Source of the DNA: Anaerolineales bacterium
Lineage (GTDB): Bacteria; Chloroflexota; Anaerolineae; Anaerolineales; UBA4823
NCBI GenBank assembly: GCA_049287485.1
Contig: JBAQFX010000005.1
Span: 1,052-65,051, forward strand
DNA: 64,000 bases
Direction: 5' to 3'
Below, piece after piece: positions 24,894 to 39,547 of the stretch. Both the position numbers and the translations under genes were made by a program. The notes beneath the pieces were generated by a model, which searched no databases, had not been told where the DNA came from, and saw only the letters and a list, made by a program, of their open reading frames with translations. Positions within the stretch are counted from its first letter, which is position 1. Every line of letters begins with the position of its first letter.

Positions 24894-26018
24894 ATGGCTG
24901 CATACCGTGTGTTAGTAGTCGAAGATAATCCCCAAGTCCGGCGTATGGTAACTGCCAGCATCAAGACGCTTGGAGCAGAGATCGATGTGCTGGATGTCCC
25001 ATCTGCAGAAGAAGCATTGTTCATTAGTTCCTCATTGCCGCTCGACCTGGTAGTACTGGATTACCGTCTTCCAGGCATGACAGGCCTGGAGATGGTCACC
25101 CGTCTGCAGAAGCGTCGACCTGAGGCAAAGATCATCCTGGTTACCGGGGTTGAAGATGCCACCACTCGCCAGCAGGTGGCTGAAGCAGACGTGGAAGCCT
25201 TTTTCTATAAGCCGATTCATATTGACACATTCCTGGAAGTAGTGAAGCGCAGCCTTTGGTCAGACCGTGGTGAGCAAAACCAGCCATTGAATAACCAGGA
25301 GCCAGCCATCACCTCACCCGTGGGCATCACCTTACCCACGCCTGAAGTCAAGCCTAGCAGCCCTCAGAGTTTCAGGCTTTCTCTGGGTGAGCGCCTGACT
25401 GCCTTAAAGCAACAATTGAAAGCTGTGTCAGCCTTGTTGGTGAATAATGAGGGTCAGGTCCTCGAGGTGGCTGGCAATCCTTCACAAATTACCACCGGCT
25501 CGGTACTACTCTCAGCGTTGATCACTGCTTACAAGGCCAGCCAGCAGGTCTCAGAGGCGATGAGCAGGGGCACAAGTTCCAGCTTGCAGTATTTCACTGC
25601 TCATCGGCAGGTCTTGTATGTGGTGACAGTCGGTCAGAACCATGCCCTTTTTGTGCTCACTTCCGGCTATTTTGAACCCGATAAACTCTCTGCAATCAAC
25701 CATACCCTCCAGGTTGCGGCGCGTGACCTGCAAACTATCTTGGCAAACCAGCTTGCCGAAGAGCAGGCCAAGCAGGATAAATCATCACAGCTGGTGACCG
25801 AATTACCCAAAGATGTTACTGTCGATCAAGAGACCCTGGCTGGGGTGGAGAAGTTATTTGCCGGGGCTGCGGAAACCACCACTAAGGAAAGAGCGGACGG
25901 TTTTTGGGAGGCTTTAGAGGCCAGCGATGCTTTGGAAGGGGTGCATGGAAAAGACGTGATCTCCTACGACCAGGCGCGTGATTTAGGCCTAGCACCGGAT
26001 AAAGAAGAGGAACCTTGA
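24894..26018 (+). CDS. Orphan response regulator: REC domain plus C-terminal Roadblock/LC7-like region and acidic tail
   Basis: REC motifs are present (VVEDN, phospho-acceptor context VVLDYRLPGMTG, and a conserved Lys context FFYKP). It has no DNA-binding output domain. The Roadblock-like call for residues ~170-290 is tentative. Confidence 0.7.
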   Translation: MAAYRVLVVEDNPQVRRMVTASIKTLGAEIDVLDVPSAEEALFISSSLPLDLVVLDYRLPGMTGLEMVTRLQKRRPEAKIILVTGVEDATTRQQVAEADVEAFFYKPIHIDTFLEVVKRSLWSDRGEQNQPLNNQEPAITSPVGITLPTPEVKPSSPQSFRLSLGERLTALKQQLKAVSALLVNNEGQVLEVAGNPSQITTGSVLLSALITAYKASQQVSEAMSRGTSSSLQYFTAHRQVLYVVTVGQNHALFVLTSGYFEPDKLSAINHTLQVAARDLQTILANQLAEEQAKQDKSSQLVTELPKDVTVDQETLAGVEKLFAGAAETTTKERADGFWEALEASDALEGVHGKDVISYDQARDLGLAPDKEEEP

Positions 26019-26105
26019 GCATTATGCTCGGGGTCATCCCCACTCCAGGGGAATGGCTGAAAATATGATAAAATACCAGACGCTCTGAAAATAGGGCGTC
26101 ATGAT

Positions 26106-26176
26106 TGGGGCATGGTGCAATGGCAGCACAGCAGACTTTGGATCTGTTTATTCTGGTTCGAGTCCGGATGCCCCAG
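26106..26176 (+). tRNA. tRNA-Gln (anticodon UUG), CCA not encoded
   Basis: The sequence folds as TGGGGCA-TG-GTGC-AATGGCA-GCAC-A-GCAGA-CTTTGGA-TCTGT-TTAT-TCTGG-TTCGAGT-CCGGA-TGCCCCA-G. The U1:A72 pair and G73 discriminator are typical of bacterial tRNA-Gln. Confidence 0.85.
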
Positions 26177-26287
26177 CTAGTTACTACAGATGACATCAGA
26201 TACGTCTAACGCAAGGTCCCCGAGGTATAGAGGCACAGGCTGCCGCTGCCCGGTATGGCTTTGCGTTTTTGCTTTCAGGGAGGCATA

Positions 26288-27634
26288 ATGAAGCTGTCCA
26301 CAATGATCCTGGCAGCAGGGCAGGGTACACGCATGAAATCCGGCCTGCCCAAGGTGTTGCACCAGCTCGTGGGTAAACCCATGGCCTGGTACCCGCTGCA
26401 GGCTGCCAGGCAAGTCAGCCCGGAAAAGCCCGTGATGGTGGTCGGGTATGCTGCCGACCAGGTGCGCAAGGTCTTGGGAGACGCAGCAGATTACGTGCTG
26501 CAGGAACCACTGCTTGGCACTGGTCACGCTGTGATGCAAGCTGAACCACAGCTTCTTGGGAAGAGCGACCTGTTGCTGGTGACCTATGCTGACATGCCCT
26601 TGCTCACCGGCTCGACTTTGGGCAAGCTGGTGGAATTGGCCCAAACCCATCGCGGTCCGCTCAGCATGCTCACCGTGATTAGCAATGAAACGCGAGGTTT
26701 TGGTCGTATCCTGCGAGACGCCTCCGGGCATGTGATTGGGGTTGTGGAAGAAGCCGAGGCCACGCCCGAGCAGCTGCTCATCCATGAGCTCAACCCTGGG
26801 GTATACTGCTTCCGTGCAGCCTGGTTATGGCCAGCCTTGAAACGCATCAGGCTTTCGCCCAAAGGTGAATACTACCTGACCGACCTGGTGAGCATGGCGG
26901 TAGCGGAAGGTCATACCATCTATAGCCTGGCCGTAGAAGACCCGAATGAGGTGATTGGCATCAACACCCGCATCCACCTGGCACAGGCAGATGCCCTGCT
27001 CAGGCAGCGCATCAACCAGCAATGGATGCTGGCGGGAGTGAGCATGATCGACCCGGGCTCTACCTATATTGAGCCGGAAGTCACCCTGGGGCAGGATACC
27101 ATCCTGTGGCCTGGCACCTACCTGCATGGCAGCACCCAGATCGGCAAGAATTGTGTCATCGGTCCCAATACCATCATCAAGGATACGCGGGTGGGCGATC
27201 ACTGCACCTTGCTTGCTTCAGTGCTGGAAGGAGCCTTGCTGGAAGACCACGTGGAGATGGGCCCGTACTGCCACCTGCGTAAGGGAGCCCACCTGTGCAC
27301 GGGTGTGCATATGGGTAACTTTGGCGAGGTGAAGGACTCCACCCTGGGTGCGCGTGCCAAGATGGGGCACTTTTCGTACCTGGGCGATGCCCAGGTGGGT
27401 GCGGAGGTGAACATCGGCGCCGGCACCATCACCTGCAACTATGATGGCACGCAGAAGTTCGCCACCGAGATTGGTGAGGGCGCTTTCATTGGCTCAGATA
27501 CCATGCTGGTGGCGCCGGTGAAGGTGGGGGCGGGGGCACGCACCGGGGCCGGGTCGGTCGTTACCAAGGACATACCACCCAACTCGTTGGCATTAGGCGT
27601 GCCTGCCAGGGTGATCAAAGAGCTGAAAAAGTGA
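26288..27634 (+). CDS. glmU: Bifunctional UDP-N-acetylglucosamine pyrophosphorylase / glucosamine-1-phosphate N-acetyltransferase
   Basis: It has the motif LAAGQGTRMKS and C-terminal left-handed beta-helix hexapeptide repeats. The ATG at 26288 follows AGGGAGG. Confidence 0.9.
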   Translation: MKLSTMILAAGQGTRMKSGLPKVLHQLVGKPMAWYPLQAARQVSPEKPVMVVGYAADQVRKVLGDAADYVLQEPLLGTGHAVMQAEPQLLGKSDLLLVTYADMPLLTGSTLGKLVELAQTHRGPLSMLTVISNETRGFGRILRDASGHVIGVVEEAEATPEQLLIHELNPGVYCFRAAWLWPALKRIRLSPKGEYYLTDLVSMAVAEGHTIYSLAVEDPNEVIGINTRIHLAQADALLRQRINQQWMLAGVSMIDPGSTYIEPEVTLGQDTILWPGTYLHGSTQIGKNCVIGPNTIIKDTRVGDHCTLLASVLEGALLEDHVEMGPYCHLRKGAHLCTGVHMGNFGEVKDSTLGARAKMGHFSYLGDAQVGAEVNIGAGTITCNYDGTQKFATEIGEGAFIGSDTMLVAPVKVGAGARTGAGSVVTKDIPPNSLALGVPARVIKELKK

Positions 27635-28917
27635 CCCATTTCATCATCCTCGGGTTATTGGTACTATTCCTCCTCGATCTGTTCATCATCGCCTACCGGG
27701 CGGCATTGCTGAAAGCCAGCCTGGCGCGCTTGTTATCCATGAAGGATGAACTTGGGCTAAAGGTCAACCGGGTGACCAATCTATTGCATACCCCGCAGAA
27801 TTGGCTGGCAGCCAGTAACCTGGTCCAGCTTTTCACCCGTTTTTTAGGGGCTGGCTTGCTGCTGGCATTGTTCATTCCACAAGCCTGGACGGTTACTGCG
27901 GTCTTATTGGATCTGGGCATCCTGCTCCTAACCATGGCGCTGGTGTTCTGGCTGGAGTGGGTGGTGGAATTGGTGGTCACCCACCAGCCCGAGACCTGGG
28001 CAATGCGCCTGGCGCCTTATGTGCACACCCTCATAGTAATCCTCTCGCCGTTGTTGGTGCTGCCACTGGCATTGGGCAGGCGCAAGGGTGAAGCCCAGGA
28101 ACCGATGATCACCGTCACCGAAGAGGAGCTGAAGAGCATGGTGGATGCCGGGCACGAGGGTGGCGTGCTGGAGGGGGATGAGCGCCAGATGATCTACTCC
28201 ATCTTCGAGCTCGGTGATACCCTGGTGCGCGAGATCATGCTACCCCGCATCTACATCACTGCTCTGGAGGCCTCCACCCCACTCTCGGCGGCGGTAGATG
28301 CCCTGATCAAATCTGGCCATTCGCGCATGCCGGTGTACGAGGAGTCGGTGGATAACATCCTGGGCCTGCTGTACGCCAAAGACCTGTTGCGGGTGTGGCG
28401 CATGGGCGAGCAGATCGATTCGCTCAAGAGCCTGCTGCGCCCGGCGACCTTTGTGCCGGAAGCCAAGAAGGTGGACGAGCTGCTGGAGGAGATGCAGGCT
28501 GGGCATGTTCACATGGCGATGGTGGTGGATGAGTATGGAGGCATTGCCGGGCTGGTGACGCTGGAGGACATCTTCGAGGAAATTGTAGGGGAGATCCAGG
28601 ATGAGTATGACCAGAGCGAGGAAGCCCCATACACGCAGGTGGGGGAGGGCGAATATGTCTTCCAGGGGCGGGTAGACTTGCGGGATTTTAATGAAGTAAT
28701 GGGCAGCCAATTGCCCACCGAAGAGGCCGAATCACTGGGCGGATTCATCTACGAGCAGGTGGGGCGGGTGCCCTCCACCGGTGAAAGCCTGCAGGTGGGG
28801 GACATCAGCCTGACCATAGAACAGGTCACCGGACGGCGCATCCGCAAGGTGAGGGCCAAGAAGCAACCTGCAGAATCACAGGAAGAGAGGCAGGATGGAG
28901 AAAGAACTGACCAATGA
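27631..28917 (+). CDS. CNNM/DUF21 - CBS pair - CorC_HlyC domain membrane protein (hemolysin-family / Mg-Co efflux-like)
   Basis: The N-terminal 4 TM segments, the CBS pair and the C-terminal CorC/HlyC region are in the usual order. The GTG start overlaps the glmU stop. Confidence 0.85.
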   Translation: MTHFIILGLLVLFLLDLFIIAYRAALLKASLARLLSMKDELGLKVNRVTNLLHTPQNWLAASNLVQLFTRFLGAGLLLALFIPQAWTVTAVLLDLGILLLTMALVFWLEWVVELVVTHQPETWAMRLAPYVHTLIVILSPLLVLPLALGRRKGEAQEPMITVTEEELKSMVDAGHEGGVLEGDERQMIYSIFELGDTLVREIMLPRIYITALEASTPLSAAVDALIKSGHSRMPVYEESVDNILGLLYAKDLLRVWRMGEQIDSLKSLLRPATFVPEAKKVDELLEEMQAGHVHMAMVVDEYGGIAGLVTLEDIFEEIVGEIQDEYDQSEEAPYTQVGEGEYVFQGRVDLRDFNEVMGSQLPTEEAESLGGFIYEQVGRVPSTGESLQVGDISLTIEQVTGRRIRKVRAKKQPAESQEERQDGERTDQ

Positions 28918-29308
28918 GCTGCGCCAAAGATTGATCGAGCTGGCGCGGCAAGCACGAAAGAACGCCTATGCACCTTATTCCAGCTACCGGGTGGGGGCAG
29001 CCCTGCTGACGCCCTCGGGGAAGTTCTTCACTGGCTGCAACGTGGAGAGTGCGGCTTACCCCACCAGCATGTGTGCCGAACGGGTGGCGGTGTTCAAGGC
29101 CGTCTCGGAGGGGGAGCGCGAGTTCCTGGCCATTGCCGTAGTCACCAGCAATGGGGGTATGCCTTGTGGCGCTTGCCGGCAGGTGCTGGCGGAGTTCGGG
29201 CTGGAGACGCTGGTGGTGATTGCCGATGATCAGGGTCAGATAAAGCAGGAGGCCACCCTGGCGGAGCTGCTGCCGGGTGCTTTTGGGCCAGGGGACCTGA
29301 GGAAATAA
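28895..29308 (+). CDS. cdd: Cytidine deaminase
   Basis: A 137-aa ORF with zinc/catalytic motifs CAERVA and PCGACRQ. It overlaps the upstream gene by 23 nt. Confidence 0.9.
   Translation: MEKELTNELRQRLIELARQARKNAYAPYSSYRVGAALLTPSGKFFTGCNVESAAYPTSMCAERVAVFKAVSEGEREFLAIAVVTSNGGMPCGACRQVLAEFGLETLVVIADDQGQIKQEATLAELLPGAFGPGDLRK
29076..29308 (+). repeat. Left 233-bp direct repeat (functional 3' end of cdd)
   Basis: It aligns without gaps to 32673-32905, a constant offset of 3597 nt. There are 8 mismatches (29080, 29140, 29152, 29158, 29160, 29161, 29164, 29212). Confidence 0.9.
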
Positions 29309-29361
29309 CAAGCCACAGGTAAACGCAGATACACACAGATGATTTCTGGCAGAGAAATATC

Positions 29362-29411
29362 TTGACAATCTATTTTAGTTGTATTATCCTATACAATTAT
29401 GTATAGGATAA
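29362..29411 (+). promoter_or_regulatory. Putative abiE promoter plus a 12-bp perfect inverted repeat (candidate AbiEi operator) spanning the start codon
   Basis: TTGACA lies at 29362-29367, with TATTAT (14-nt spacing) or TATCCT (17-nt spacing) downstream. The inverted repeat is ttatcctataca (29384-29395), atta, tgtataggataa (29400-29411). The ATG is at 29399 and has no SD. Confidence 0.45.
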
Positions 29412-29935
29412 GCGAATTAATCCAACTCGATAAGAAATTAGTTCACACGAACGATCTGGCCATTCTTTGGGGCATAAAGAACAGGCAGACTTTATACCAA
29501 ACCATCACGCGCTACATCGATAAAGGCATCCTGTTTCAAGTTTATAAAGGACTGTATGCCACTGTTCCGCCTGAATCACTTAACCCGCTCGAGCTCGGCC
29601 GAGCCATCATCCATCGCTATGCCTATCTCACCACTGAAACCGTTCTTGCCCAGGCCGGGGTAATCTCACAGAGGGTTTTTGCTTACACCTTCGCCACCGA
29701 CCAGTCGAAGCACCTCTCGGTTGGCCAGTGGACTTTTCGCTTTCGCAAGCTCAAAGAAATCTACCTTTACAATACTGCCGGTATCGATGAGCAAAATGGA
29801 AGTTTTGTGGCCACGCTCGAGCGTGCTGTGGCCGACATGCTTTACTTTAACCCCAGATATCATTTTGACCTTCGCGAAGCAATCGATTTTGAAAAAGTCC
29901 ATGCATTACAAAGGGAAATCGGTTATCCATGTTAA
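29399..29935 (+). CDS. abiEi: AbiEi-family antitoxin / transcriptional regulator (type IV TA, abortive infection)
   Basis: A 178-aa ORF with an N-terminal wHTH-like region. It overlaps the downstream AbiEii-family nucleotidyltransferase gene by 7 nt, the typical abiE gene order. Confidence 0.65.
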   Translation: MYRISELIQLDKKLVHTNDLAILWGIKNRQTLYQTITRYIDKGILFQVYKGLYATVPPESLNPLELGRAIIHRYAYLTTETVLAQAGVISQRVFAYTFATDQSKHLSVGQWTFRFRKLKEIYLYNTAGIDEQNGSFVATLERAVADMLYFNPRYHFDLREAIDFEKVHALQREIGYPC

Positions 29936-30669
29936 GCCTGCGTCCTGAAGATCTCATCCACAAATCACAGCTCAATCGGCTGCTGATGGATATCGTTGAT
30001 CAGCCTTTATTGGCTCATGCTTTGGCCTTCAAAGGGGGCTCTTGCGCGGCTATGTTGGGCTACCTGGACCGTTTCTCAGTAGACCTTGACTTCGATGTTT
30101 TGTTGGAGATTGACAAATCTAAATTTCGGCAGGTATTCCATCAAGTTTTTGACCATTTGGGGCTGGATATAACCCTTGAATATAAGACTGCACTCGTTTT
30201 TCAGCTTCGTTATTTGAATACCCCGGGCAAGCGCAGCACCATAAAAATCAGCGCTAGTGATACGAAAGTCTTAGCCAACCAATACCGCGTGCAGTACTTT
30301 CCCGAGATTGACCGTCTGATTAACAGCCAGAGCATAGAAACCATGTTTGCCAATAAGCTGGTGGCTTTGACTGATCGTTATACACGTCACAAAAGCATCG
30401 CTGGACGTGACCTTTATGATATCCATCATTTTTTCGTTCAGGGTTACGCATATTTGGGTGGGGTGATCTTGGAGAGAACGGGTCTTGTTCCTCGAGAATA
30501 TTTCAGCAGATTGATTCAATTTATCCAGGAGCACTTCAATCAGACAGTCATCAATGAAGACTTGAATTCTCTCCTTCCGATGAAGCAATTCCAACAGGTC
30601 CGGAAAATCTTGATCCCAGAAACCATTGCCCTGCTTGAGCGGGAGGTTAGCAGACTGGGATCAGATTAA
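29929..30669 (+). CDS. abiEii: AbiEii/AbiGii-family nucleotidyltransferase toxin
   Basis: A 246-aa ORF with the family-typical N-terminal block FKGGSCAAMLGYLDRFSVDLDFD and downstream K..A...R....RDLYDI. Confidence 0.8.
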   Translation: MLSLRPEDLIHKSQLNRLLMDIVDQPLLAHALAFKGGSCAAMLGYLDRFSVDLDFDVLLEIDKSKFRQVFHQVFDHLGLDITLEYKTALVFQLRYLNTPGKRSTIKISASDTKVLANQYRVQYFPEIDRLINSQSIETMFANKLVALTDRYTRHKSIAGRDLYDIHHFFVQGYAYLGGVILERTGLVPREYFSRLIQFIQEHFNQTVINEDLNSLLPMKQFQQVRKILIPETIALLEREVSRLGSD

Positions 30670-30866
30670 ATTTGCGAAGCAAACAAACGCTGGCATGTGT
30701 TGGTTTAATTATTATAGTAGGGGCGCAGCAGCCTATCCGGTCTAGTTTTCTGACCGGAACGCTGCGTCCATTCTGTCTCTCTAATCTTTGCCTATGCGGT
30801 TTCGTATGGGCGGTCATAGTGCAAGCGTTTTTAGCTTGCGCGTGAACCGCCCTTCTTCTCCGTTCC

Positions 30867-31301
30867 TCATGGGTAATACCGTATTTCAGCAATCTTCCCA
30901 CCAATGCTGTTGGTGGTTATGGCAGTACTACCCAGGTGATCCTCAAAGATATAATTTGCTGCGCTGGATCCAGTACGCATCGCTATCAGGGTACTTCCGG
31001 CATAATAATACCGGTCTCTTACGTTCATCGTACTGGTCGAGCCGGTCCATTCGAAGTAGCATTGTCCGGAGGGTACCGATGGATTTCCAATATAAGTTGT
31101 AGTGACTATGCTGGATATGTCCCTGTCAAATGCGCTCATTACCCGATTACCATCACCATCATAAGTGAATGTAGCGATCGTTTTGCTCGGGCTATCTACT
31201 TGAACCAGCCGGGTCACCTGCACGGTCACCTGCACGATCTTTATGCGGTTTTCTGTGCGGTTTTCGGCATCATAACTCATGGTGTATAGATTTCTCCCCA
31301 C
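30867..31301 (-). pseudogene. Orphan RHS-repeat / RHS-associated-core fragment (no N-terminal body, no C-terminal toxin tip)
   Basis: The translation contains YDAENR, FTYDGDGNRV, YYYAGSTLIAMR and FEDHLGSTAITTNSIGGKIAEIRYYP*. This is the stretch just before the usual RHS core cleavage motif. The 144 aa have no matching flanks. Confidence 0.65.
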
Positions 31302-31710
31302 ATATCTGGTGATCTGGTTGCCATTTTATCGTAGGTGAAGCTATCGGAACCTATCGCCATCATTGCAAGACCGTGATTACCTTAATCATGGATTGCATTC
31401 AGAATAGCAAAATTATCCTCACCTGTCAATCATTTAAAGCCGAGATCATCTCCGCTTCACATTTTTTCGACAATTGCTAAATGCTAACAGCCAAAAGCTA
31501 CTCTTTTATTAGAAATCTTAAAATATTCCGAATTTTTCAAAATCCTCTTGTGGACTAGAACAATTGTGCTATAATTAGAATGCCTTCAATAAATATGGTT
31601 TTTCAAATAAAGGCATTCGTATACCGGTTGTTCTTTACCGGTAAAAGTTGTAATTACTCAACTGTTTGCTAATATACCGTCTTTCTTATAATGATAGGTG
31701 GAATGAGTTC

Positions 31711-31758
31711 AAAAAAAGGGGTTCGCAGGGGCTACGCACCCCGTGTACCCCATTTTTT
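31711..31758. terminator. Terminator-like GC hairpin flanked by A7 and T6 inside the islet coding desert
   Basis: The sequence is aaaaaaa-ggggttcgcaggggctacgcaccccgtgtacccc-a-tttttt. The terminal ggggt/acccc and inner gggg/cccc pairings form a long stem. Confidence 0.45.
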
Positions 31759-31919
31759 GATAAATTTCCCCTCCCCCGCATGTGTAATTGCTGGTTATTT
31801 AGGTAGATATATCCAGCTGGGGAGGGGTCAGGGGTGGGGGCGTGAGTAATTACATAGAGCTGCAATAACCGGCACATTAACAATCCACGTTGCCCCTCAT
31901 TGCCCTCCCCGCCAACCAT

Positions 31920-32388
31920 GAATTGAATGCATTTGAATATTTTGAGGTTCAATTCCCCTTGTTATCATGCTCCATCCGCTAATCCGCTATGCAATCCGCT
32001 GACCAGCCATTCTTCCGCGTGTTCGCTAATTTTCGTGCCCTTCGTGTTATTTTTTCCCCCGCACCTTACCAACTTCATCCCACCTCAGGCCATATTCGTT
32101 CCTCTTCGTATTTTTCGCGGAACGAATACCGCACTGGATTAATGGTTCATCAAGGAATTGAATGCATTTTATTTTTTCTGAGATTCAAATACCTTCACCA
32201 TCCTGTATACCAACACTGCCCTTATCATATTTCTTTCATGATAAGGCTCCATCCGCTAATCCGCTATGCAATCCTCTGACCTGCTTCCCTTTCGTGTATT
32301 TACAAACCTTCGTGATCTTCGTGACATTCGTATCCATTGTGTTATTTTTTCGTTTCCCCCCGCACCTTACCAACCTCATCCCTCACCT
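31920..32388. repeat. Degenerate two-unit tandem repeat (units about 235-300 bp) built from short iterated motifs
   Basis: Four blocks are shared in the same order: gaattgaatgcatt (31920 / 32155); gctccatccgctaatccgctatgcaatccNctgacc (31969 / 32246); ttcgtg clusters ending in ttatttttt (32032-32055 / 32291-32350); cccgcaccttaccaacNtcatccc (32056 / 32356). Confidence 0.6.
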
Positions 32389-32672
32389 GGAAAATAAATT
32401 GAAGGCTTTTATCAAGGGCGCTTTTTGCCCGATGTCGGGAGCGTATTTTGCGATCGATTTCGAGAAACAATTCATCTTTGTCGCCTAGCCTAACATTTCT
32501 CTCGATATTTCCACGCCTCACCCTTTATCGTTTGCTGTATTAGGAAGAAAAAGACCCCTCGCGCTTCTCAAGGGGTTTGGAGTATCCTTTGCAACAGATC
32601 ATTAACCAGGGGCTGGGGTGGGAACTTCACTCTGCTCTTCAGGGGTGGCTCCGGCCATGAGCAAGCCAAGCT

Positions 32673-32905
32673 CCGAGCGGGTGGCGGTGTTCAAGGCCGT
32701 CTCGGAGGGGGAGCGCGAGTTCCTGGCCATTGCCGTGGTCACCAGCAACGGGGGCACACCCTGTGGCGCTTGCCGGCAGGTGCTGGCGGAGTTCGGGCTG
32801 GAGACGCTTGTGGTGATTGCCGATGATCAGGGTCAGATAAAGCAGGAGGCCACCCTGGCGGAGCTGCTGCCGGGTGCTTTTGGGCCAGGGGACCTGAGGA
32901 AATAA
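32673..32905 (+). pseudogene. Right direct repeat: orphan 3' fragment of cdd (last 77 codons plus stop)
   Basis: It is about 96.6% identical to 29076-29308. Homology starts abruptly inside the CAE codons, so the fragment lacks the N-terminal 61 residues, including part of the catalytic CAE motif. Confidence 0.85.
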
Positions 32906-33211
32906 TCGTGAGAGAGCGAGGCGATTTATTTATAAATAGAGGATGAATGTGCAAAAAGACCTTTCGTGTTAATCTAAAGGGCCTTGAATATTAGCTGCAC
33001 TTGACGGTACACTTCCGTGTGTTCTTGGCTATGCACTTCGCTGGTTGAACAGATCAAGCCTTACTTTAAATATGTGGAATTTTGTGCGCGTCGAAAGAAT
33101 AATAATTATAAGTGTAGAAAAACACATTGCCAACTTTTTATGAGTGTGCTAAACTTATAAAGGCAATTGGCCATCCTATACCCAAATCTAATTAAAAAAG
33201 AGGAGAATCGT

Positions 33212-34258
33212 ATGAAGAAACTTTCATTATTACTGGCCGTTCTGATGATTGTCTCTGTGCTGCTATCGGCTTGCGGTGGTGGTGCAAGCACCAAGCTGAT
33301 GATTGGCCTGGTAACTGACACGGGTGGAGTGAACGACAAGTCCTTCAACCAGTCAGCATGGGCAGGTGTACAAAAGGCAGCTACCGAATTTGGTTGGACT
33401 GCAAACTACATCGAATCCAAGGTAGCCTCCGACTATAGCAAGAATATAGACCAGTTCGCTACCGAAAAGTATGATGTAATCGTCACAGTTGGTTTTTTGA
33501 TGGGTGATGACACTGCTGTAAAAGCCAAACAATATCCAGACATCAATTTCGCCATCATTGATAACTCATACTTCCCCACAGCTGGCTCTGTAGCTTGCGA
33601 TGATACTGTCACGGACTGCTATGCTGACGGTGGCTTAACGAATGTCACCAGCCTGATGTTCCAGGAAGACCAGGTTGGCTATCTAGCAGGTGTCTTGGCG
33701 GCTGGGATGACCGGAACTGGCACTGTATGCACTGTATCTGGTATGGAAATCCCTCCAGTTGTACGCTTCGTCGTTGGCTTCCAGTCCGGCGCCAAGTGGA
33801 TGGAACCATCAACAGAGACGCTCAACGTCTACATTCCATCCTTCACTGACCCCGCCAAGGGCAAGGAAACTGCCATCAGCATGATCGGTCAGGGTTGCGA
33901 TGTAATCTTCGGCGTGGGCGGCAATACAGGCAATGGCGGTCTGCTGGCTGCCAAAGAGCAGGGCTTGATGGCTATCGGAGTAGATGTGGATCAATACAAC
34001 ACCTATCCTGAGGTGCAGAGTGCCTTACTTTCAAGTGCAGCCAAGAACGTTGACGTTGCTGTCTATGAGTATCTAAAGACAGTCAACGCTGGCACGGTAA
34101 AGGCTGGCGTTGTAACCGCTACTCTCGCCAACGGCGGTGTAGGTCTGGCTCCCTACCATGATTGGGACAGCAAGATTCCCCAGAGTGTAAAGGACAAAAT
34201 TGACGAAGCAAAAGCAGCCTTGATCGCTGGAACCATCACTACCGGTTATACACCCTAG
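33212..34258 (+). CDS. BMP-family (PnrA/Med-like) ABC substrate-binding lipoprotein
   Basis: RBS AGGAGA, lipobox LLSAC, and the BMP blocks D.GGVNDKSFNQSAW and GVDVDQ. Confidence 0.85.
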   Translation: MKKLSLLLAVLMIVSVLLSACGGGASTKLMIGLVTDTGGVNDKSFNQSAWAGVQKAATEFGWTANYIESKVASDYSKNIDQFATEKYDVIVTVGFLMGDDTAVKAKQYPDINFAIIDNSYFPTAGSVACDDTVTDCYADGGLTNVTSLMFQEDQVGYLAGVLAAGMTGTGTVCTVSGMEIPPVVRFVVGFQSGAKWMEPSTETLNVYIPSFTDPAKGKETAISMIGQGCDVIFGVGGNTGNGGLLAAKEQGLMAIGVDVDQYNTYPEVQSALLSSAAKNVDVAVYEYLKTVNAGTVKAGVVTATLANGGVGLAPYHDWDSKIPQSVKDKIDEAKAALIAGTITTGYTP

Positions 34259-34278
34259 ACTTTAGTAAGATTGATTTA

Positions 34279-34311
34279 AGAGGGTGCTGTATCTAAGGTA
34301 CAGCACCCTCT
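34279..34311 (+). terminator. Stem-loop after the SBP gene (intra-operon attenuator or stabiliser)
   Basis: A perfect 13-bp stem (agagggtgctgta / tacagcaccctct) with no T-run. Confidence 0.5.
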
Positions 34312-34357
34312 ATAAATATAATCAAATACAGTAATAATCTTGGAATTGGAGAAAGCT

Positions 34358-35905
34358 ATGGCTTATGCCTTACAAGCCACAGACATTACCAAGCGTTTCC
34401 CCGGTGTACTTGCCAATGATCACGTCAACTTTACCTTAGAAAAAGGTGAAATTCATGCCCTGCTAGGGGAGAATGGTGCAGGGAAATCGACTTTAATGAA
34501 TATCCTTTATGGGCTATACCAGCCTGATGAAGGAGAGATACGGATCAACGGACAGCTGAAGCGCATCAATACGCCCCACGATGCGATTGCTCAAGGCATT
34601 GGCATGGTACACCAGCACTTTATGCTTGTTCCCCCGCTCACCGTGACTGAAAATATCATGCTGGGTCAAGAGTCGGTTATCAGCTCTACCAAAGCATTTG
34701 GTCAGCTAGCGAAGCTCGACCGGCGCGTGGTAGCTAAGAGTATCACAGAATTAAGCCAGAAGTATGAATTGGCGGTTGACCCCAATGCCCTGGTGCAAGA
34801 CTTGGCGGTAGGGGCGCAACAGCGTATTGAGATCATTAAGGCACTGTACCGCAACGCCGACATATTGATCCTGGACGAGCCCACTGCGGTACTGACGCCT
34901 CAAGAGGCGGATGAGCTATTCATTATCATGCGTAACCTTATTGAGCAAGAAAAGTCCATTGTTTTCATCACCCACAAATTGCGTGAAGTTTTCGAAGTTG
35001 CAGACCGCATTAGTGTAATGCGCACAGGGCAAATGGTGGGTACGGTTAAGCCAAATGAAGCCACCCGTGAGAAGTTAGCGGAAATGATGGTTGGCCGTGA
35101 AGTGATCTTACAGATCGATAAACTAAAAGCTCAACCTGGTGAAACGGTCTTGACCGTTGACGACCTGCACGTGATGGATGAGCGTAAGCACATGGCAGTG
35201 GATGGTGTAACCTTTGCTGTACAAGCCGGTGAAATCCTGGGAGTGGCCGGGGTGCAGGGTAATGGTCAAACTGAGCTTGTGGAAGCATTGACCGGTTTAC
35301 GCCGAAGTTATTCTGGCAAAATACAAATCATGGGTCAAAATGTCACGAATTTCTCACCTCGCCAGATTACCGAGACGGGTTCCGCGCATGTGCCAGAGGA
35401 TCGGCATAAGCATGGGTTGGTATTATCTTTCTCGGTACGAGACAACCTGGTGCTGTGTACTTATTATAACCCACCATTCGCCAATGGGGTGGAAATGGAC
35501 TTCCCCGTTATCGATCAGTACGCCCAGGAGCTGGTGACTACATTTGACATACGCACCCCCAGCATCGAAACACAGGTTAGCTCATTATCGGGAGGCAACC
35601 AGCAAAAAGTGATCGTGGCAAGAGAGCTGGCGCGCCCGGTAAAGCTGCTAATTGTTAACCAACCTACACGTGGATTGGATGTTGGCAGCATTGAGTTCAT
35701 TCATCACCGCATAGTGGAGGCACGTGATAAGGGTGCGGCAGTTCTGTTGGTTAGCGCAGAGCTCGATGAGATCATGAGCCTCTCTGACCGTATCGCAGTC
35801 ATGTACAAAGGTTGTATCCTAGAAACGTTGGAGGCGCGAGCTGCCACGCGAGAGCAGCTGGGTCTATTAATGGCTGGGGTTGAAAAGGAAGGTGCCTATG
35901 TCTGA
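34358..35905 (+). CDS. ABC transporter ATP-binding protein, duplicated ATPase (sugar/nucleoside type)
   Basis: It has two NBDs. The first has Walker A GENGAGKST, and signature LSGGNQQK lies in the second half. Confidence 0.9.
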   Translation: MAYALQATDITKRFPGVLANDHVNFTLEKGEIHALLGENGAGKSTLMNILYGLYQPDEGEIRINGQLKRINTPHDAIAQGIGMVHQHFMLVPPLTVTENIMLGQESVISSTKAFGQLAKLDRRVVAKSITELSQKYELAVDPNALVQDLAVGAQQRIEIIKALYRNADILILDEPTAVLTPQEADELFIIMRNLIEQEKSIVFITHKLREVFEVADRISVMRTGQMVGTVKPNEATREKLAEMMVGREVILQIDKLKAQPGETVLTVDDLHVMDERKHMAVDGVTFAVQAGEILGVAGVQGNGQTELVEALTGLRRSYSGKIQIMGQNVTNFSPRQITETGSAHVPEDRHKHGLVLSFSVRDNLVLCTYYNPPFANGVEMDFPVIDQYAQELVTTFDIRTPSIETQVSSLSGGNQQKVIVARELARPVKLLIVNQPTRGLDVGSIEFIHHRIVEARDKGAAVLLVSAELDEIMSLSDRIAVMYKGCILETLEARAATREQLGLLMAGVEKEGAYV

Positions 35906-37271
35906 AGCACCACTCATCATGCCAAAGCCCACTAGCACATGGCGTAAAAGGCTTTCACAATTCTGGGAAGCGATTCGAATTCCAACACTGGCAATCCTTG
36001 CTGCTTTCTTCCTGGGCGGTATTATTATTTGGATTACGTATGGCAGCCCGCTTACCGTCGTTGAAGCCTATTGGGGAATGATCCGCGGGGCATTTATAAA
36101 GCAGCGAGGGTTCACAGAGACATTGGTCGCAACCACACCGTATATTTTGCTCAGTCTGGGTGTGGCATTGGGTTTCAAGACTGGGTTATTCAATATAGGT
36201 ATTGAAGGGCAGTTTTATATAGGTGCCATCAGCGCCGCCTTTGTTGGTCAGGCGTTCCATAACTTGCCTGCCATCATCCACCTGCCCCTGACCTTATTAG
36301 CCGGAATAATTGGGGGAGGTATTTGGGCGGCTATACCGGGGTATCTCAAGGCGCGCACTGGAGCGCACGAGGTCATCAGTACGATGATGATGAACTATAT
36401 CGCCTTCCGGCTGCAAGAGTATATTGTGACTTTTAAACTTAAAGATCCAGGTGCAGGTCTGGTGCAAACGCCTCCTGTCTCAATGCAAGCCGAGATTTGG
36501 CTCATGAGTGAAATTCCAGTGCGATTGACAGAGCCGCTTAACGCCCTGATGGTGGCACTAGTGATTGGCTTCATCTTTCTGCTGATTGGGCGCTGGGTGA
36601 TTAGGTTACCTAGCCTGCAGAAGCGCTTCACAACCACCCTACAGCGACGCCTTATCATGTGGGGGATTGGTCTGTTTGTAACAGTAATCACCTACTTTGG
36701 ATTGCCGGCCTTGACGAATTTATGGTGGCCTTTTAAAGATCCATATGATCGCCTGCACACTGGCCTGTTCATCGCCCTGTTCGCGGCTGTCGGAGTGTGG
36801 TGGTTACTGTCGAAGACAACCATTGGCTTTGAGCTGCGTAGCGTGGGCGCAAACCTGAATGCAGCCCAGTATGCTGGCATGAGCATCACGCGCAATATCA
36901 TGATCGCCATGGCGCTCTCTGGTGCCCTGGGTGGATTGGCAGGGACAATCGAGGTGCTGGGTGTCTCCACCTGCCGCTGTGTACAGGTAGCTTTCGTCAG
37001 TGGCTATGGTTGGGACAGTATTGGTATTGCGCTGCTGGCGAAAAACAGTCCTTTTGGCATCATCGCAGCTTCATTCCTGTGGGCTGCCATGCGCAATGGT
37101 GCAGACCTGATGGAACTGAGCTCTGGGGTCTCAAAATACATTATTTCTCTGATTCAGGGGCTGGTGCTCTTGTTTATTGCCGCACCTGCTATTGTGCGTT
37201 GGGTATTCCGGATTAAGGGGGGAAAACAGGAGGTTCAAGGACCATTGACGCACGGCTGGGGAGGAGGCTAG
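35898..37271 (+). CDS. ABC transporter permease (BMP/nucleoside-type, first)
   Basis: A polytopic protein with the block NIGIEGQ typical of this permease family. The ATG at 35898 follows AAGGAAGG. Confidence 0.85.
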   Translation: MSEAPLIMPKPTSTWRKRLSQFWEAIRIPTLAILAAFFLGGIIIWITYGSPLTVVEAYWGMIRGAFIKQRGFTETLVATTPYILLSLGVALGFKTGLFNIGIEGQFYIGAISAAFVGQAFHNLPAIIHLPLTLLAGIIGGGIWAAIPGYLKARTGAHEVISTMMMNYIAFRLQEYIVTFKLKDPGAGLVQTPPVSMQAEIWLMSEIPVRLTEPLNALMVALVIGFIFLLIGRWVIRLPSLQKRFTTTLQRRLIMWGIGLFVTVITYFGLPALTNLWWPFKDPYDRLHTGLFIALFAAVGVWWLLSKTTIGFELRSVGANLNAAQYAGMSITRNIMIAMALSGALGGLAGTIEVLGVSTCRCVQVAFVSGYGWDSIGIALLAKNSPFGIIAASFLWAAMRNGADLMELSSGVSKYIISLIQGLVLLFIAAPAIVRWVFRIKGGKQEVQGPLTHGWGGG

Positions 37272-37274
37272 AGC

Positions 37275-38375: not shown

Positions 38376-38406
38376 TGTGTGTCACAATCAGTCTATGCAG
38401 AAAATA

Positions 38407-39441: not shown

Positions 39442-39547
39442 ATAATTATCAAATAATTGAGTTTGGAATAAACCGGTATTTCCAGCGAAGGACACGCATA
39501 ATACATTGATATTCAGGCAGATTGTCAATCGATCAGCTTATCGCATA

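What the first reader, a model, noticed from the sequence alone, without database searches (positions are those of the whole stretch)
29076..32905. About 3.4-kb accessory islet inserted at the 3' end of cdd, bracketed by 233-bp direct repeats of the gene end
Coordinates 29076-29308 (the last 77 codons plus stop of the intact cdd) recur at 32673-32905, a constant offset of 3597 nt with no gaps. Homology begins abruptly inside the catalytic CAE codons and ends exactly at the stop codon.

Between the copies lie an AbiEi/AbiEii pair, an RHS-core fragment and about 1.4 kb of repeat- and hairpin-rich non-coding DNA. By eye this interval is much more AT-rich than the GC-rich glmU-CNNM-cdd flank.

This architecture is the footprint of a site-specific integrative element that targets a gene's 3' end and restores it with its own copy. 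Yet no integrase, recombinase or transposase is present. The element is therefore either a decayed island remnant, a cargo module mobilised in trans, or a product of a different, uncharacterised insertion mechanism.
Basis: partly seen in the sequence, partly recalled or inferred. Interest (0 to 1): 0.7.

Follow-up and report, generated by a model that had tools for sequence, protein, structure and literature searches.

The report
Repeat-flanked AbiE islet downstream of cdd
A 3.4-kb stretch carrying an AbiE toxin-antitoxin (phage-defence) gene pair really is bracketed by two copies of the end of the cytidine deaminase gene and is missing from a close relative, but it looks like a scar of ordinary recombination between two versions of a variable locus, not the footprint of a self-inserting element.

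Summary
Bases 29076-29308 (the last 77 codons plus stop of cdd) recur at 32673-32905 with 8 differences. Homology starts abruptly and ends at the stop codon.

A relative about 95% identical (L162) has the exact empty site: cdd runs straight into the sequence at 32906 onward.

The integrative-element reading is not supported:
- No recombinase is detected in the islet or among the 50 of 54 window ORFs scanned.
- Only the AbiEi/AbiEii pair is cargo. It is a compact cassette with its own promoter, found in dozens of unrelated contexts.
- The rest of the islet matches sequence that natively lies between cdd and the Bmp transporter operon in related Anaerolineae. This comprises an orphan RHS remnant, the leader of a lost GH3 glycosidase gene, and a second, diverged copy of the segment that precedes the Bmp promoter.
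- Related species carry cdd-end remnants next to AbiE at different boundaries (codons 61, 74 and about 103).

Best explanation: two alternative alleles of a hot spot were joined by one homologous exchange and one illegitimate joint at 32672|32673 (4-bp microhomology CCGA). RecA-type recombination between the repeats can delete the islet precisely.

This is a new member of a known kind, of modest interest. One side lead: direct repeats flank this AbiE cassette family more often than chance.

The parts
28895..29308 (+). Intact cdd (tetrameric-type cytidine deaminase, 137 aa).
   Evidence: Pfam PF00383 3.7e-18. NCBIfam TIGR01354 5.1e-41, above its cut-off. glmU-CNNM-cdd synteny holds in essentially all 79 related loci.
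29076..29308 (+). Direct repeat copy A: the last 77 codons plus stop of the intact cdd. It carries a cluster of 5 unique substitutions at 29152-29164, including T89M next to the PCGAC zinc motif.
29362..29407 (+). AbiE promoter (-35 TTGACA, 17 nt, TATCCT) and the inverted repeat CCTATACA-ATTA-TGTATAGG (29388-29407) that spans the AbiEi start codon. This is the left limit of the DNA conserved across the whole cassette family.
   Evidence: Promoter scan, 10 of 12 matches. The same block is conserved in 64 loci from unrelated contexts, and sequence upstream of -35 is unrelated among them.
29399..29935 (+). AbiEi antitoxin/regulator (178 aa).
   Evidence: PADLOC AbiEi 3.6e-27. NCBIfam TAA_AbiEi 2.1e-12, 47 bits, below the curated cut-off of 150. 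Pfam AbiEi_4 is weak at 0.0019.
29929..30669 (+). AbiEii nucleotidyltransferase toxin (246 aa). It overlaps AbiEi by 7 nt. Its stop codon is the right limit of the conserved cassette DNA.
   Evidence: Pfam PF08843 1.1e-17. PADLOC 5e-23. 3297 homologues. Flanks downstream of the stop are unrelated among 75 loci.
30867..31301 (-). Remnant of an orphan RHS/YD-shell C-terminal cassette. It is truncated at ...IRYYP, before the toxin tip.
   Evidence: Marginal HMM hits. 84 homologues carry PF25023/PF05593 and are all short proteins. They sit in orphan RHS arrays with immunity-like genes. Weak homologues lie directly downstream of cdd in L006, which has no AbiE, and after AbiEii in L035.
31506..32622 (+). 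Decayed leader region of a lost GH3 glycosidase gene. It holds a promoter-like block and a hairpin motif (31506-31648) and a diverged local duplication of about 280 nt (about 31913-32480).
   Evidence: Collinear with L006 11718-13066 in six ordered hits. Matches L163 221-732, upstream of GH3. Internal repeats D2-D5. No GH3 pseudogene detectable. No Rfam match.
32540..32672 (+). 'preBmp(i)': a terminator hairpin plus about 100 nt. It is a diverged second copy of the segment that precedes the Bmp promoter in relatives, cut off about 45 nt before where the promoter would lie.
   Evidence: Against the L014 cdd-Bmp spacer: 85/131 identical, z = 11.5. Against window copy (ii): 74/122, z = 5.6. Terminator-like hairpin at 32554-32576.
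32669..32676 (.). The novel joint 32672|32673. preBmp(i) is joined to cdd codon 61, and both parental sequences share CCGA across the joint.
   Evidence: Read from the alignments. No homology to the left of it.
32673..32905 (+). Direct repeat copy B (cdd'). It is a promoterless 3' fragment of cdd that lacks the CAE catalytic motif, and it keeps the consensus state at 6 of the 8 sites where the copies differ.
   Evidence: Contiguous with the L162 empty-site sequence.
32940..33159 (+). 'preBmp(ii)' (32940-33112) plus the conserved Bmp promoter block (33113-33159). This is the resident spacer between cdd and Bmp, as in the empty-site relatives.
33167..34258 (+). Bmp/PnrA-like substrate-binding protein, the first gene of a nucleoside-type ABC transporter operon. 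This is the right flank of the hot spot.
   Evidence: Pfam PF02608 1.5e-58. Orthologues at 75-97% in L007, L014, L080 and L162.

Best explanation
The 'islet' is a recombination scar in a variable hot spot that lies between the conserved glmU-CNNM-cdd block and a Bmp/ABC nucleoside-transporter operon in a clade of Anaerolineae.

The two alleles. Allele H1, as in L162 and L014, is cdd, a short spacer, then Bmp. Allele H2 is cdd, the AbiE cassette, an orphan RHS remnant, the leader of a GH3 gene that has since been lost, the pre-Bmp segment, then Bmp. The window carries almost the whole intergenic part of H2 stacked in front of H1.

How they were joined (inferred). DNA from a closely related H2 genome recombined with an H1 genome. 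One exchange was homologous, in or upstream of cdd. The other was an illegitimate joint between the pre-Bmp segment and cdd codon 61, at the 4-bp microhomology CCGA (32672|32673). This could have been homology-facilitated illegitimate recombination. An equivalent route is a single crossover of a circularised fragment. Either way, 233 bp of cdd ends up on both sides of the insert.

No dedicated recombinase is needed. The repeat ends at the stop codon only because the two alleles are unrelated beyond it.

The AbiEi/AbiEii pair is the only real cargo. It is presumably an abortive-infection or addiction module, which may favour retention of the arrangement.

The two repeats are each other's closest relatives. 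So either the donor was conspecific or gene conversion keeps the repeats alike. RecA-type recombination between them would delete the islet and regenerate exactly the empty site seen in L162.

Shown: the anatomy, the empty site, the homology of the insert to locus-native DNA, and the absence of detected recombinases. Inferred: the recombination pathway and its direction.
For: - Exact empty site. L162 1-1535 matches window 27774-29308 at 94.2%. L162 1303-2648 matches window 32673-34014 at 95.0%, as one continuous contig. L014 has the same arrangement.
- The insert is locus-native DNA plus AbiE. Window 30990-32126 is collinear with the L006 cdd-to-GH3 spacer. 31506-32622 matches the L163 GH3 leader. 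32540-32672 is a diverged duplicate of the pre-Bmp segment (z = 11.5 against L014, z = 5.6 against window copy ii).
- The region between cdd and Bmp differs among relatives: GH3, HAD, HbpS-like, DUF4279, a Type ISP restriction enzyme, AbiE, or nothing.
- No recombinase family was detected in 50 of 54 window ORFs. None is seen in the ORFs within 7 kb downstream of cdd in 38 related loci.
- The cdd' remnants in relatives have different boundaries. L087 starts at codon 74, L010 at codon 103 and runs to 45 nt past the stop, and L009 starts near codon 105. They also sit differently relative to the spacer: before it in L010, after it in the window. This implies repeated independent events, not one att site.
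- The AbiE cassette has no conserved ends beyond its promoter and stop codon. Only 4 of the 80 metagenome loci (L080-L159) are in the cdd/Bmp context.
- Experimental precedent. In E. coli, 56 of 60 recombinants from DNA carrying a gene-end homology showed the duplication by PCR. The 14 that were sequenced carried duplications of 109-950 bp of that gene end, attributed to single crossovers of a circular molecule (PMC3240628).
Against: - The pathway is inferred from anatomy alone. A 4-bp microhomology is weak evidence, because it is expected by chance fairly often.
- No conspecific H2 genome (cdd-AbiE-...-preBmp-Bmp without cdd') was found, so the proposed donor allele is hypothetical.
- The two cdd copies are 96.6% alike, while the two pre-Bmp copies are only about 61% alike. 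This needs either a conspecific donor carrying an anciently diverged spacer allele, or later gene conversion confined to the cdd part. Neither is demonstrated.
- In three relatives the cdd' remnant starts within about 20 nt of the AbiEii stop. That is more regular than random illegitimate joints would predict.
- L162 is a short-read metagenome contig. A collapsed repeat could in principle mimic an empty site.
Confidence: 0.6

Rival explanations
1. The islet is a decayed integrative element, or a cis-/trans-mobilisable remnant (CIME-like). In this view an element with a tyrosine or serine recombinase once integrated at the 3' end of cdd and brought its own copy of the gene end. The recombinase and transfer genes were later deleted. 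The two repeats would then be attL and attR and could still be used by a related element's integrase.
For: - The architecture resembles such elements: an intact gene, an insert, then a displaced gene end. An exact empty site exists in a relative.
- AbiE systems are common cargo of integrative elements (papers listed).
- CIMEs of 1.2-13 kb without any recombination genes are frequent at gene 3' ends in streptococci (PMC7563491).
- Short direct repeats (26-33 bp) flank the same cassette in some unrelated loci.
Against: - No recombinase is found in the islet or the scanned window ORFs. None is seen in the ORFs downstream of cdd in 38 related loci; these were only partly Pfam-tested.
- The right end of the 'element' is homologous to the chromosomal DNA just downstream of the target. 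It is not element-specific.
- Repeat extents differ among genomes (codons 61, 74, about 103; ending at the stop or 45 nt past it), unlike a fixed att core.
- Both copies share lineage-specific derived substitutions, so neither looks element-borne.
Confidence: 0.15
2. The arrangement arose in two steps. First, a spontaneous tandem duplication in an H2 genome copied the segment from cdd codon 61 to the pre-Bmp region, through an illegitimate exchange between sister chromosomes at CCGA. Second, the downstream unit was replaced or trimmed by homologous recombination with an H1 allele or by deletion. No foreign DNA insertion occurred at the joint.
For: - The joint 32672|32673 has exactly the form of a tandem-duplication junction: the end of a segment joined to its own start.
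- The two cdd copies are each other's closest relatives and share at least 5 derived states, as expected for copies made within one lineage.
- Other local duplications occur nearby, namely the 280-nt units at 31913-32480 and the two pre-Bmp copies.
Against: - It needs two events where the best explanation needs one.
- The two pre-Bmp copies would then be the same age as the cdd copies, yet they are about 61% against 96.6% identical. A later allele replacement must therefore be added anyway.
- The final product cannot be told apart from that of the best explanation.
Confidence: 0.15
3. The second copy is an assembly artefact: contigs of two strains joined, or a mis-traversed repeat in a metagenome-assembled genome.
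For: - The window comes from a metagenome-assembled genome (NCBI MAG, 100-kb contig).
- The copies share exact runs of 59, 47 and 96 bp, which can tangle an assembly graph.
Against: - The joint between preBmp(i) and cdd codon 61 is unique sequence that must be present in reads. Whichever way the repeat is traversed, that joint implies a second cdd end downstream of the islet (inference).
- The copies differ at 8 sites.
- Analogous cdd' remnants next to AbiE occur in independent assemblies from other projects: L010 and L009 on long contigs and L087 from JGI.
Confidence: 0.04

Closest known systems
[quoted passage not shown] 2017, PMC5635113)
   Same: There is a conserved core flank (glmU-CNNM-cdd) and, in part of the clade, a conserved Bmp operon on the other side. 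The content in between varies: AbiE, GH3, HAD, RHS remnants, DUF4279, a Type ISP restriction enzyme, or nothing. No integrase or transposase is detected.
   Different: A plain double crossover in both flanks leaves no duplication. Here one end was joined illegitimately inside the flank gene, which left a 233-bp direct repeat. Recombination rates in the flanks were not measured.
Homology-facilitated illegitimate recombination, and single-crossover (Campbell-type) integration of circularised fragments, as seen in transformation and conjugation experiments (PMC3240628)
   Same: One junction lies in homologous sequence and one is a novel joint. The duplicated gene end flanking the insert is 233 bp here, within the experimental range of 109-950 bp. 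Only host recombination functions are needed.
   Different: The experimental cases are laboratory constructs under selection. Here the pathway, the mode of DNA entry and the direction of the event are inferred. Whether these Anaerolineae are transformable is unknown.
Integrative elements that target the 3' end of a protein gene and carry a replacement end (for example e14 and phage 21 at icd, ICESt3 at fda, SGI1 at trmE), and their recombinase-less remnants (CIMEs)
   Same: The target gene is intact, the insert follows it, and a displaced gene-end copy lies beyond. Relatives have an empty site, and the cargo is a defence or addiction module.
   Different: There is no recombinase here or at this site in related genomes. 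The repeat boundaries vary. The right end of the insert is homologous to the target's own downstream region. Neither repeat copy looks foreign. The e14/phage 21 and SGI1 comparisons rest on my own knowledge. CIME properties are taken from PMC7563491.
AbiE type IV toxin-antitoxin / abortive-infection systems (AbiEi wHTH antitoxin-regulator plus AbiEii nucleotidyltransferase)
   Same: Both proteins match the family models. The genes form an overlapping two-gene operon, and the promoter carries an inverted repeat of the kind AbiEi is known to bind for autoregulation (the autoregulation point is from my knowledge of Dy et al. 2014 and Hampton et al. 2018).
   Different: The AbiEi here is short (178 aa) and scores below NCBIfam's equivalog cut-off. 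No functional test of toxicity or phage defence is possible here.
Orphan RHS C-terminal cassettes downstream of rhs genes
   Same: Homologues of the fragment at 30867-31301 are short YD-shell proteins. They lie in arrays behind large RHS genes, alongside small immunity-like genes such as DUF4279 and DUF4304.
   Different: The window copy stands alone. It is truncated before the toxin tip, has no main rhs gene nearby and is probably a dead remnant.

Membership tests
Integrase-mediated integrative element (island, IME, ICE or prophage) at a gene 3' end | Encodes a site-specific recombinase (tyrosine or serine) or transposase. | tested here: not met
   Islet ORFs hit only AbiEi, AbiEii and an RHS fragment; three further small ORFs had no hits. 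50 of 54 window ORFs show no recombinase family.
Integrase-mediated integrative element (island, IME, ICE or prophage) at a gene 3' end | Flanking repeats are a fixed attachment core, the same in independent insertions. | tested here: not met
   The cdd' remnants start at codon 61 (window), 74 (L087), 103 (L010) and about 105 (L009). The repeat ends at the stop codon in the window but 45 nt past it in L010.
Integrase-mediated integrative element (island, IME, ICE or prophage) at a gene 3' end | Element ends are element-specific DNA, unrelated to the target locus. | tested here: not met
   The right-hand 1.7 kb is collinear with the native cdd-downstream DNA of L006 and L163. It ends in a duplicate of the pre-Bmp segment.
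Integrase-mediated integrative element (island, IME, ICE or prophage) at a gene 3' end | Empty target site in related genomes. | tested here: met
   L162, at 94-95% identity, has cdd followed directly by the homologue of 32906 onward. L014 does likewise.
Integrase-mediated integrative element (island, IME, ICE or prophage) at a gene 3' end | Excision to a circular form and a repaired site. | not testable with these tools
   No reads are available.
Cis-mobilisable element (CIME) | Derived from an ICE or IME by deletion, keeps functional att sites, and is found alone or in tandem with an ICE or IME at the same target (PMC7563491). | tested here: inconclusive
   No ICE or IME is seen at cdd in the 38 related loci that carry a cdd at least 68% identical. 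The survey reached only 7-10 kb downstream, and att function cannot be tested.
AbiE type IV toxin-antitoxin / abortive infection system | AbiEi-family antitoxin adjacent to an AbiEii (PF08843/DUF1814) nucleotidyltransferase in one operon. | tested here: met
   PADLOC AbiEi 3.6e-27 and AbiEii 5e-23. Pfam PF08843 scores 65 bits against a cut-off of 22.5. The genes overlap by 7 nt.
AbiE type IV toxin-antitoxin / abortive infection system | Autoregulated promoter with inverted repeats bound by AbiEi. | tested here: inconclusive
   A conserved inverted repeat, CCTrTACA-N4-TGTAyAGG, spans the start codon in 64 loci. Binding was not tested.
AbiE type IV toxin-antitoxin / abortive infection system | Toxicity neutralised by the antitoxin; phage protection. 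| not testable with these tools
   Needs experiments.
Mobile-element-free hot spot evolving by recombination at core flanks | Conserved flanking core genes, variable content among relatives, and no mobility genes. | tested here: met
Mobile-element-free hot spot evolving by recombination at core flanks | Raised homologous recombination signal in the flanking core genes. | not tested
   Only hints exist: a mosaic patch in cdd and unequal flank identities to L162, about 95% upstream against 97-98% in Bmp.
HFIR or single-crossover integration product | One homologous junction, one novel joint at a microhomology, and a duplication of the homologous segment. | tested here: inconclusive
   The structure fits, with CCGA at 32672|32673 and a 233-bp duplication. 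A 4-bp microhomology is not diagnostic, and the parental molecules are not in hand.

The most novel reading that the evidence does not exclude
This AbiE cassette family may be a mobile unit that needs no recombinase of its own. In this reading a promoter-plus-two-gene module repeatedly picks up a piece of whatever lies next to it (here the cdd end) and uses that piece as a portable homology anchor. It would loop out by recombination between its flanking direct repeats and re-insert by host RecA into any genome that has the same gene. The toxin-antitoxin addiction would then fix each insertion.

The hints are as follows:
- Direct repeats of 26-386 bp flank the cassette in 8 of 52 loci. None of the 52 has inverted repeats. 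At random positions the rate is 7 of 260 (Fisher p = 0.0009, or 0.01 on a conservative count).
- There are at least three distinct cdd'-AbiE joints in related species.
- In three genomes the remnant starts within about 20 nt of the AbiEii stop.
Probability: 0.15. Interest if true: 0.6.

Novelty: new member of a known kind. Interest (0 to 1): 0.35.

Why it matters
A gene-end duplication bracketing an insert is usually read as the signature of an integrase. This case shows the same picture arising where no integrase is involved. Here the insert is mostly the alternative allele of the same locus.

That matters for automated island and prophage callers, which use such repeats as att sites. It also matters for interpreting defence-islet turnover in uncultured Chloroflexota.

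The case also documents a small defence and toxin hot spot downstream of cdd in Anaerolineae, holding AbiE, a Type ISP restriction enzyme and RHS orphan remnants.

Finally, it gives a testable lead: toxin-antitoxin cassettes may spread by homology-anchored host recombination.

Tried and rejected
- Exact-protein look-ups of cdd and AbiEii found nothing. The identical AbiEii later surfaced as P0001 / MFZ2095049.1.
- I looked for a longer, decayed duplication to the left of copy B. There is none; the score is below the shuffle mean.
- Rfam found nothing in the islet, either on the whole window at gathering thresholds or on 29250-33250 at E <= 1. Tandem-repeat and terminator scans showed nothing beyond expectation.
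- I looked for GH3, HAD or other pseudogene remains in 30600-33200. There are none.
- I tested whether the AbiE phylogeny conflicts with the core phylogeny. AbiE identities are 68-81% and core identities 74-84%. The closest pairs differ, but L035 has assembly frameshifts, so this is not decisive.
- My early idea was that the intact cdd of L010 carries a foreign 3' patch. I rejected it: its 3' end is 89/105 identical to L006 against 274/315 for the 5' part, which is no real difference. What does hold is that the L010 cdd' is closer to the L006 and L005 cdd (93% and 91%) than to L010's own gene (83%).
- I looked for conserved terminal repeats or att-like ends on the AbiE cassette. None exist beyond the promoter and the stop codon.
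- I looked for integrases among ORFs downstream of cdd in 38 loci and saw none.
- I considered the L105 385-bp flanking repeat as a second 'gene-end' case. It is a non-coding repeat with a third local copy, so it is not comparable.
- The viral collections were not searched, because the relatives found in the genome-contig scan are MAG contigs showing conserved housekeeping synteny around cdd.

Full report
**1.
The tool finds one long direct repeat in 27000-35000. It spans 29076-29308 and 32673-32905: 233 nt, 97% identical, offset 3597, no gaps. BLASTN gives 96.6% and E = 7e-109.

The alignment shows the match stopping at the TAA of cdd. It begins abruptly, with CCGA shared at the left edge. 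A local alignment of the 370 nt left of copy B against cdd and its upstream region scores below the mean of shuffles, so the duplication is not a longer decayed one.

Copy A is the end of an intact cytidine deaminase gene (Pfam PF00383; NCBIfam TIGR01354). Between the copies lie:
- AbiEi (PADLOC 3.6e-27) and AbiEii (PF08843 1.1e-17; PADLOC 5e-23);
- a minus-strand YD/RHS fragment at 30867-31301;
- about 1.4 kb with no credible ORF and no Rfam match.

The composition claim needs correcting. The window averages about 50% GC, the islet 36-49%, and the glmU-CNNM-cdd block is the outlier at 57-61%.

**2. Source and relatives.**
The identical AbiEii is MFZ2095049.1, from an Anaerolineales metagenome-assembled genome, on a 100-kb contig. 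A scan of species-representative genomes with the CNNM protein returned 79 Anaerolineae loci, with a best identity of 84%.

glmU-CNNM-cdd is syntenic in essentially all of them, but what follows cdd varies:
- the orthologous Bmp/ABC operation directly (L014);
- HAD and a GH3 glycosidase, then Bmp (L007);
- GH3 (L006);
- an inverted ABC operon (L002, L008, L013 and others);
- AbiEi/AbiEii (L009, L010, L035, L049).

Further contexts from other searches add HbpS-like genes (L165), DUF4279 plus AbiE (L118), and AbiE plus a Type ISP restriction enzyme (L087). This is a hot spot of gene turnover. I saw no integrase or transposase in it. The cluster survey covered 38 loci and ten representative ORFs were Pfam-tested. 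None was detected in 50 of the window's 54 ORFs either.

**3. The empty site exists.**
The closest Bmp homologue (97% aa) lies on JGI contig L162, which reads CNNM, cdd, 265 nt, Bmp.
- L162 1-1535 aligns to window 27774-29308 at 94.2%.
- L162 1303-2648 aligns to window 32673-34014 at 95.0%.

So one continuous sequence runs from cdd straight into the homologue of 32906 onward. Relative to L162 the window has exactly one repeat unit plus the islet extra. One caveat applies: a short-read contig could collapse a repeat. However, AbiE-less arrangements also occur on long contigs (L006, L007).

**4. What the islet is made of.**
The AbiE pair is a compact cassette. Across 64 loci the conserved DNA starts sharply at the -35 hexamer. 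This promoter block includes an inverted repeat spanning the start codon. Conservation ends at the AbiEii stop, and the flanks are unrelated. Of the 80 metagenome loci fetched with an AbiEii profile, only four are in the cdd/Bmp context.

The rest of the islet is not foreign.
- The RHS fragment has weak homologues directly downstream of cdd in L006, which lacks AbiE, and after AbiEii in L035.
- Window 30990-32126 gives six ordered hits to the L006 cdd-to-GH3 spacer.
- 31506-32622 matches the leader upstream of GH3 in L163. No GH3 coding remnant survives.
- 32540-32672, immediately left of copy B, is a diverged second copy of the terminator-plus-100-nt segment that precedes the Bmp promoter. 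It matches L014 at 85/131 (z = 11.5) and the window's own resident copy at 32940-33112 at 74/122 (z = 5.6).

The insert therefore equals AbiE plus almost the entire cdd-to-Bmp intergenic region of another allele ('H2'). It is cut off about 45 nt before the Bmp promoter and joined to cdd codon 61 of an L162-like allele ('H1').

Homologues of the RHS fragment are short YD-shell proteins in orphan-cassette arrays with immunity-like genes. So the fragment is a dead orphan rhs remnant.

**5. Relatives carry similar scars at different places.**
- L010 has a 106-141-bp cdd' starting 16 nt after AbiEii. It runs from codon 103 to 45 nt past the stop and lies before the spacer, not after it as in the window.
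- L009 has a decayed remnant from about codon 105, with an internal stop.
- L087 has codons 74-96 starting 17 nt after AbiEii.
- L035, L049, L110 and L080 have AbiE without any remnant.

Sister species differ by presence or absence of the cassette: L010 has it and L006 does not; likewise L009 and L007, and L035 and L068. AbiE proteins differ among carriers about as much as core proteins do (68-81% against 74-84%). The association with cdd is therefore old, not a recent sweep.

The L010 cdd' is closer to the cdd of L006 and L005 (93% and 91%) than to L010's own gene (83%). It is thus another allele's gene end, not a fresh copy.

**6. The two window copies.**
A and B differ at 8 sites. A differs from L162 at 20 sites and B at 16. 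Polarising with 20 other species shows two things:
- A and B share at least five derived states, including two amino-acid changes (V to L at repeat position 51, G to R at position 225).
- At 6 of the 8 sites where they differ, A is the derived copy. That includes a 13-bp cluster at 29152-29164 giving T89M, at a residue invariant in all 20 outgroups.

The copies are thus each other's closest relatives. So either both parental molecules were conspecific or gene conversion homogenises the copies. By contrast, the two pre-Bmp copies are only about 61% alike. This is the main loose end of my model.

**7. Mechanism.**
The simplest account has four elements:
- a homologous exchange in or upstream of cdd;
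- an illegitimate joint at 32672|32673 across the CCGA microhomology;
- two alleles of the same hot spot as the partners;
- either homology-facilitated illegitimate recombination or a single crossover of a circularised fragment as the route.

There is experimental precedent. In E. coli, DNA carrying a gene-end homology mostly integrated by single crossover of a circular molecule, and the sequenced recombinants had 109-950 bp of that gene end duplicated (PMC3240628).

Hot spots without mobility genes that evolve by recombination at core flanks are well documented (PMC5635113).

The repeat ends at the stop codon because the alleles are unrelated beyond it. It starts in CAE because that is where the illegitimate joint happened to fall.

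A tandem duplication followed by allele replacement gives the same product, and I cannot separate the two.

The integrase or CIME reading (PMC7563491) fails three of its defining features when tested: recombinase, fixed att site and element-specific ends. I keep it at 0.15 because trans-acting enzymes and larger elements beyond my 10-kb flanks cannot be excluded.

An assembly artefact is unlikely. The unique joint must exist in reads, and independent assemblies show analogous scars.

**8. A side lead.**
Direct repeats between the 560 nt upstream and the 2.5 kb downstream of the AbiE cassette occur in 8 of 52 testable loci: the window, L010, L089, L096, L105, L119, L122 and L150, at 26-386 bp. 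No locus has an inverted repeat. At random positions with the same geometry the counts are 7 direct and 2 inverted in 260. Fisher p is 0.0009, or 0.01 after dropping a dispersed-repeat case and merging the two cdd cases.

Some of these are local repeat families (L096, L105, L122) and the loci are not all independent. So this is a lead, not a finding. It is the basis of the 'homology-anchored cassette' reading given as the novel case.

**9. Verdict.**
The site-specific-integration interpretation is not supported. This is an ordinary though instructive product of general recombination in a small defence hot spot downstream of cdd. It is a new member of a known kind, with interest 0.35.

Noticed in passing
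L080-L159 (for example L105 2505-2889 / 4300-4667; L089 381-413 / 1907-1936; L119 9367-9391 / 10830-10855; L150 5637-5664 / 7418-7445): Direct repeats of 26-386 bp flank this AbiE cassette family in 8 of 52 loci, against 0 inverted and against 7 of 260 random positions. The excess over chance is Fisher p = 0.0009. Some of the cases are local repeat families.
   Followed up: partly
window 29362-29407 and the equivalent positions in 64 loci: An almost invariant promoter block lies upstream of AbiEi: CTTGACA, 17 nt, TATTATCCT, then the inverted repeat CCTGTACA-N4-TGTACAGG across the start codon. It is conserved across very different genomic contexts and is presumably the AbiEi operator.
   Followed up: partly
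window 29152-29164 (copy A): The intact cdd carries five clustered substitutions in 13 bp. One gives T89M, directly before the PCGAC zinc-ligand motif, at a residue invariant in 20 other species. The non-functional copy B keeps the consensus. The cluster looks like a single multi-nucleotide event or a short conversion tract.
   Followed up: partly
window 26000-29300: The glmU-CNNM-cdd block is 57-61% GC in a window that otherwise averages about 50%. The core flank, not the islet, is the compositional outlier.
   Followed up: no
window 33113-33159; L014 1508-1554; L007 14503-14546; L012 11690-11733; L006 15674-15720: A 47-nt block (GAAAAACACATTGCCAACTTTTTATnnGTGTGCTAAACTTAT) upstream of the Bmp transporter gene is 87-91% conserved across species whose proteins are only about 40-80% identical. 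It is probably a promoter or operator for nucleoside-transporter regulation.
   Followed up: no
window 31506-31648; L163 221-356; L010 13586-13656 and 13789-13867; L006 12103-12154 and 12480-12522; reverse orientation in L008, L087, L111, L160: A promoter-like block (CTTGTGGACTAGAACAATTGTGCTATAAT) is followed by the hairpin motif ACCGGTTGTTCTTTACCGGT. It recurs upstream of GH3 genes and, in either orientation, in several cdd-downstream spacers. It may be a regulatory module or a small repeated element.
   Followed up: partly
window 32000-32600: There is strong strand asymmetry (GC skew down to -0.39, AT skew -0.25), with a pyrimidine-rich plus strand. The stretch carries reiterated ATCCGCT and TTCGTG motifs inside two diverged units of about 280 nt. 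No Rfam match and no coding signal were found.
   Followed up: partly
L087 3958-7152: A Type ISP restriction-modification enzyme (PF18135 3e-83) and an unannotated 358-aa protein lie directly after AbiE plus the cdd' remnant. The cdd-downstream site thus acts as a small defence island in this clade.
   Followed up: partly
L150 4691-7445; L154 3713-5312: The same AbiE cassette sits between rpsG and the rest of the str operon region in L150. In L154 it sits between two tRNA-Ala genes. Both are insertions right after highly conserved genes.
   Followed up: no
L118 2109-2576; L167 2803-3252: A DUF4279 protein lies between cdd and AbiE in L118. The same domain sits among orphan RHS cassettes in L167. 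It may be an immunity protein left from an RHS toxin module in the hot spot.
   Followed up: no
window 33167-39528: cdd lies next to a Bmp/PnrA-type ABC transporter operon (33167-38375), and a second, divergent Bmp paralogue lies at 38407-39528 on the minus strand. Pyrimidine-nucleoside uptake and deamination genes are therefore linked, and the islet now separates cdd from that operon.
   Followed up: no
L035, L049, L068 (glmU and CNNM regions): These long contigs from the MFD project show split protein matches that suggest frameshift errors. This lowers apparent identities and limits their use in phylogenies.
   Followed up: no
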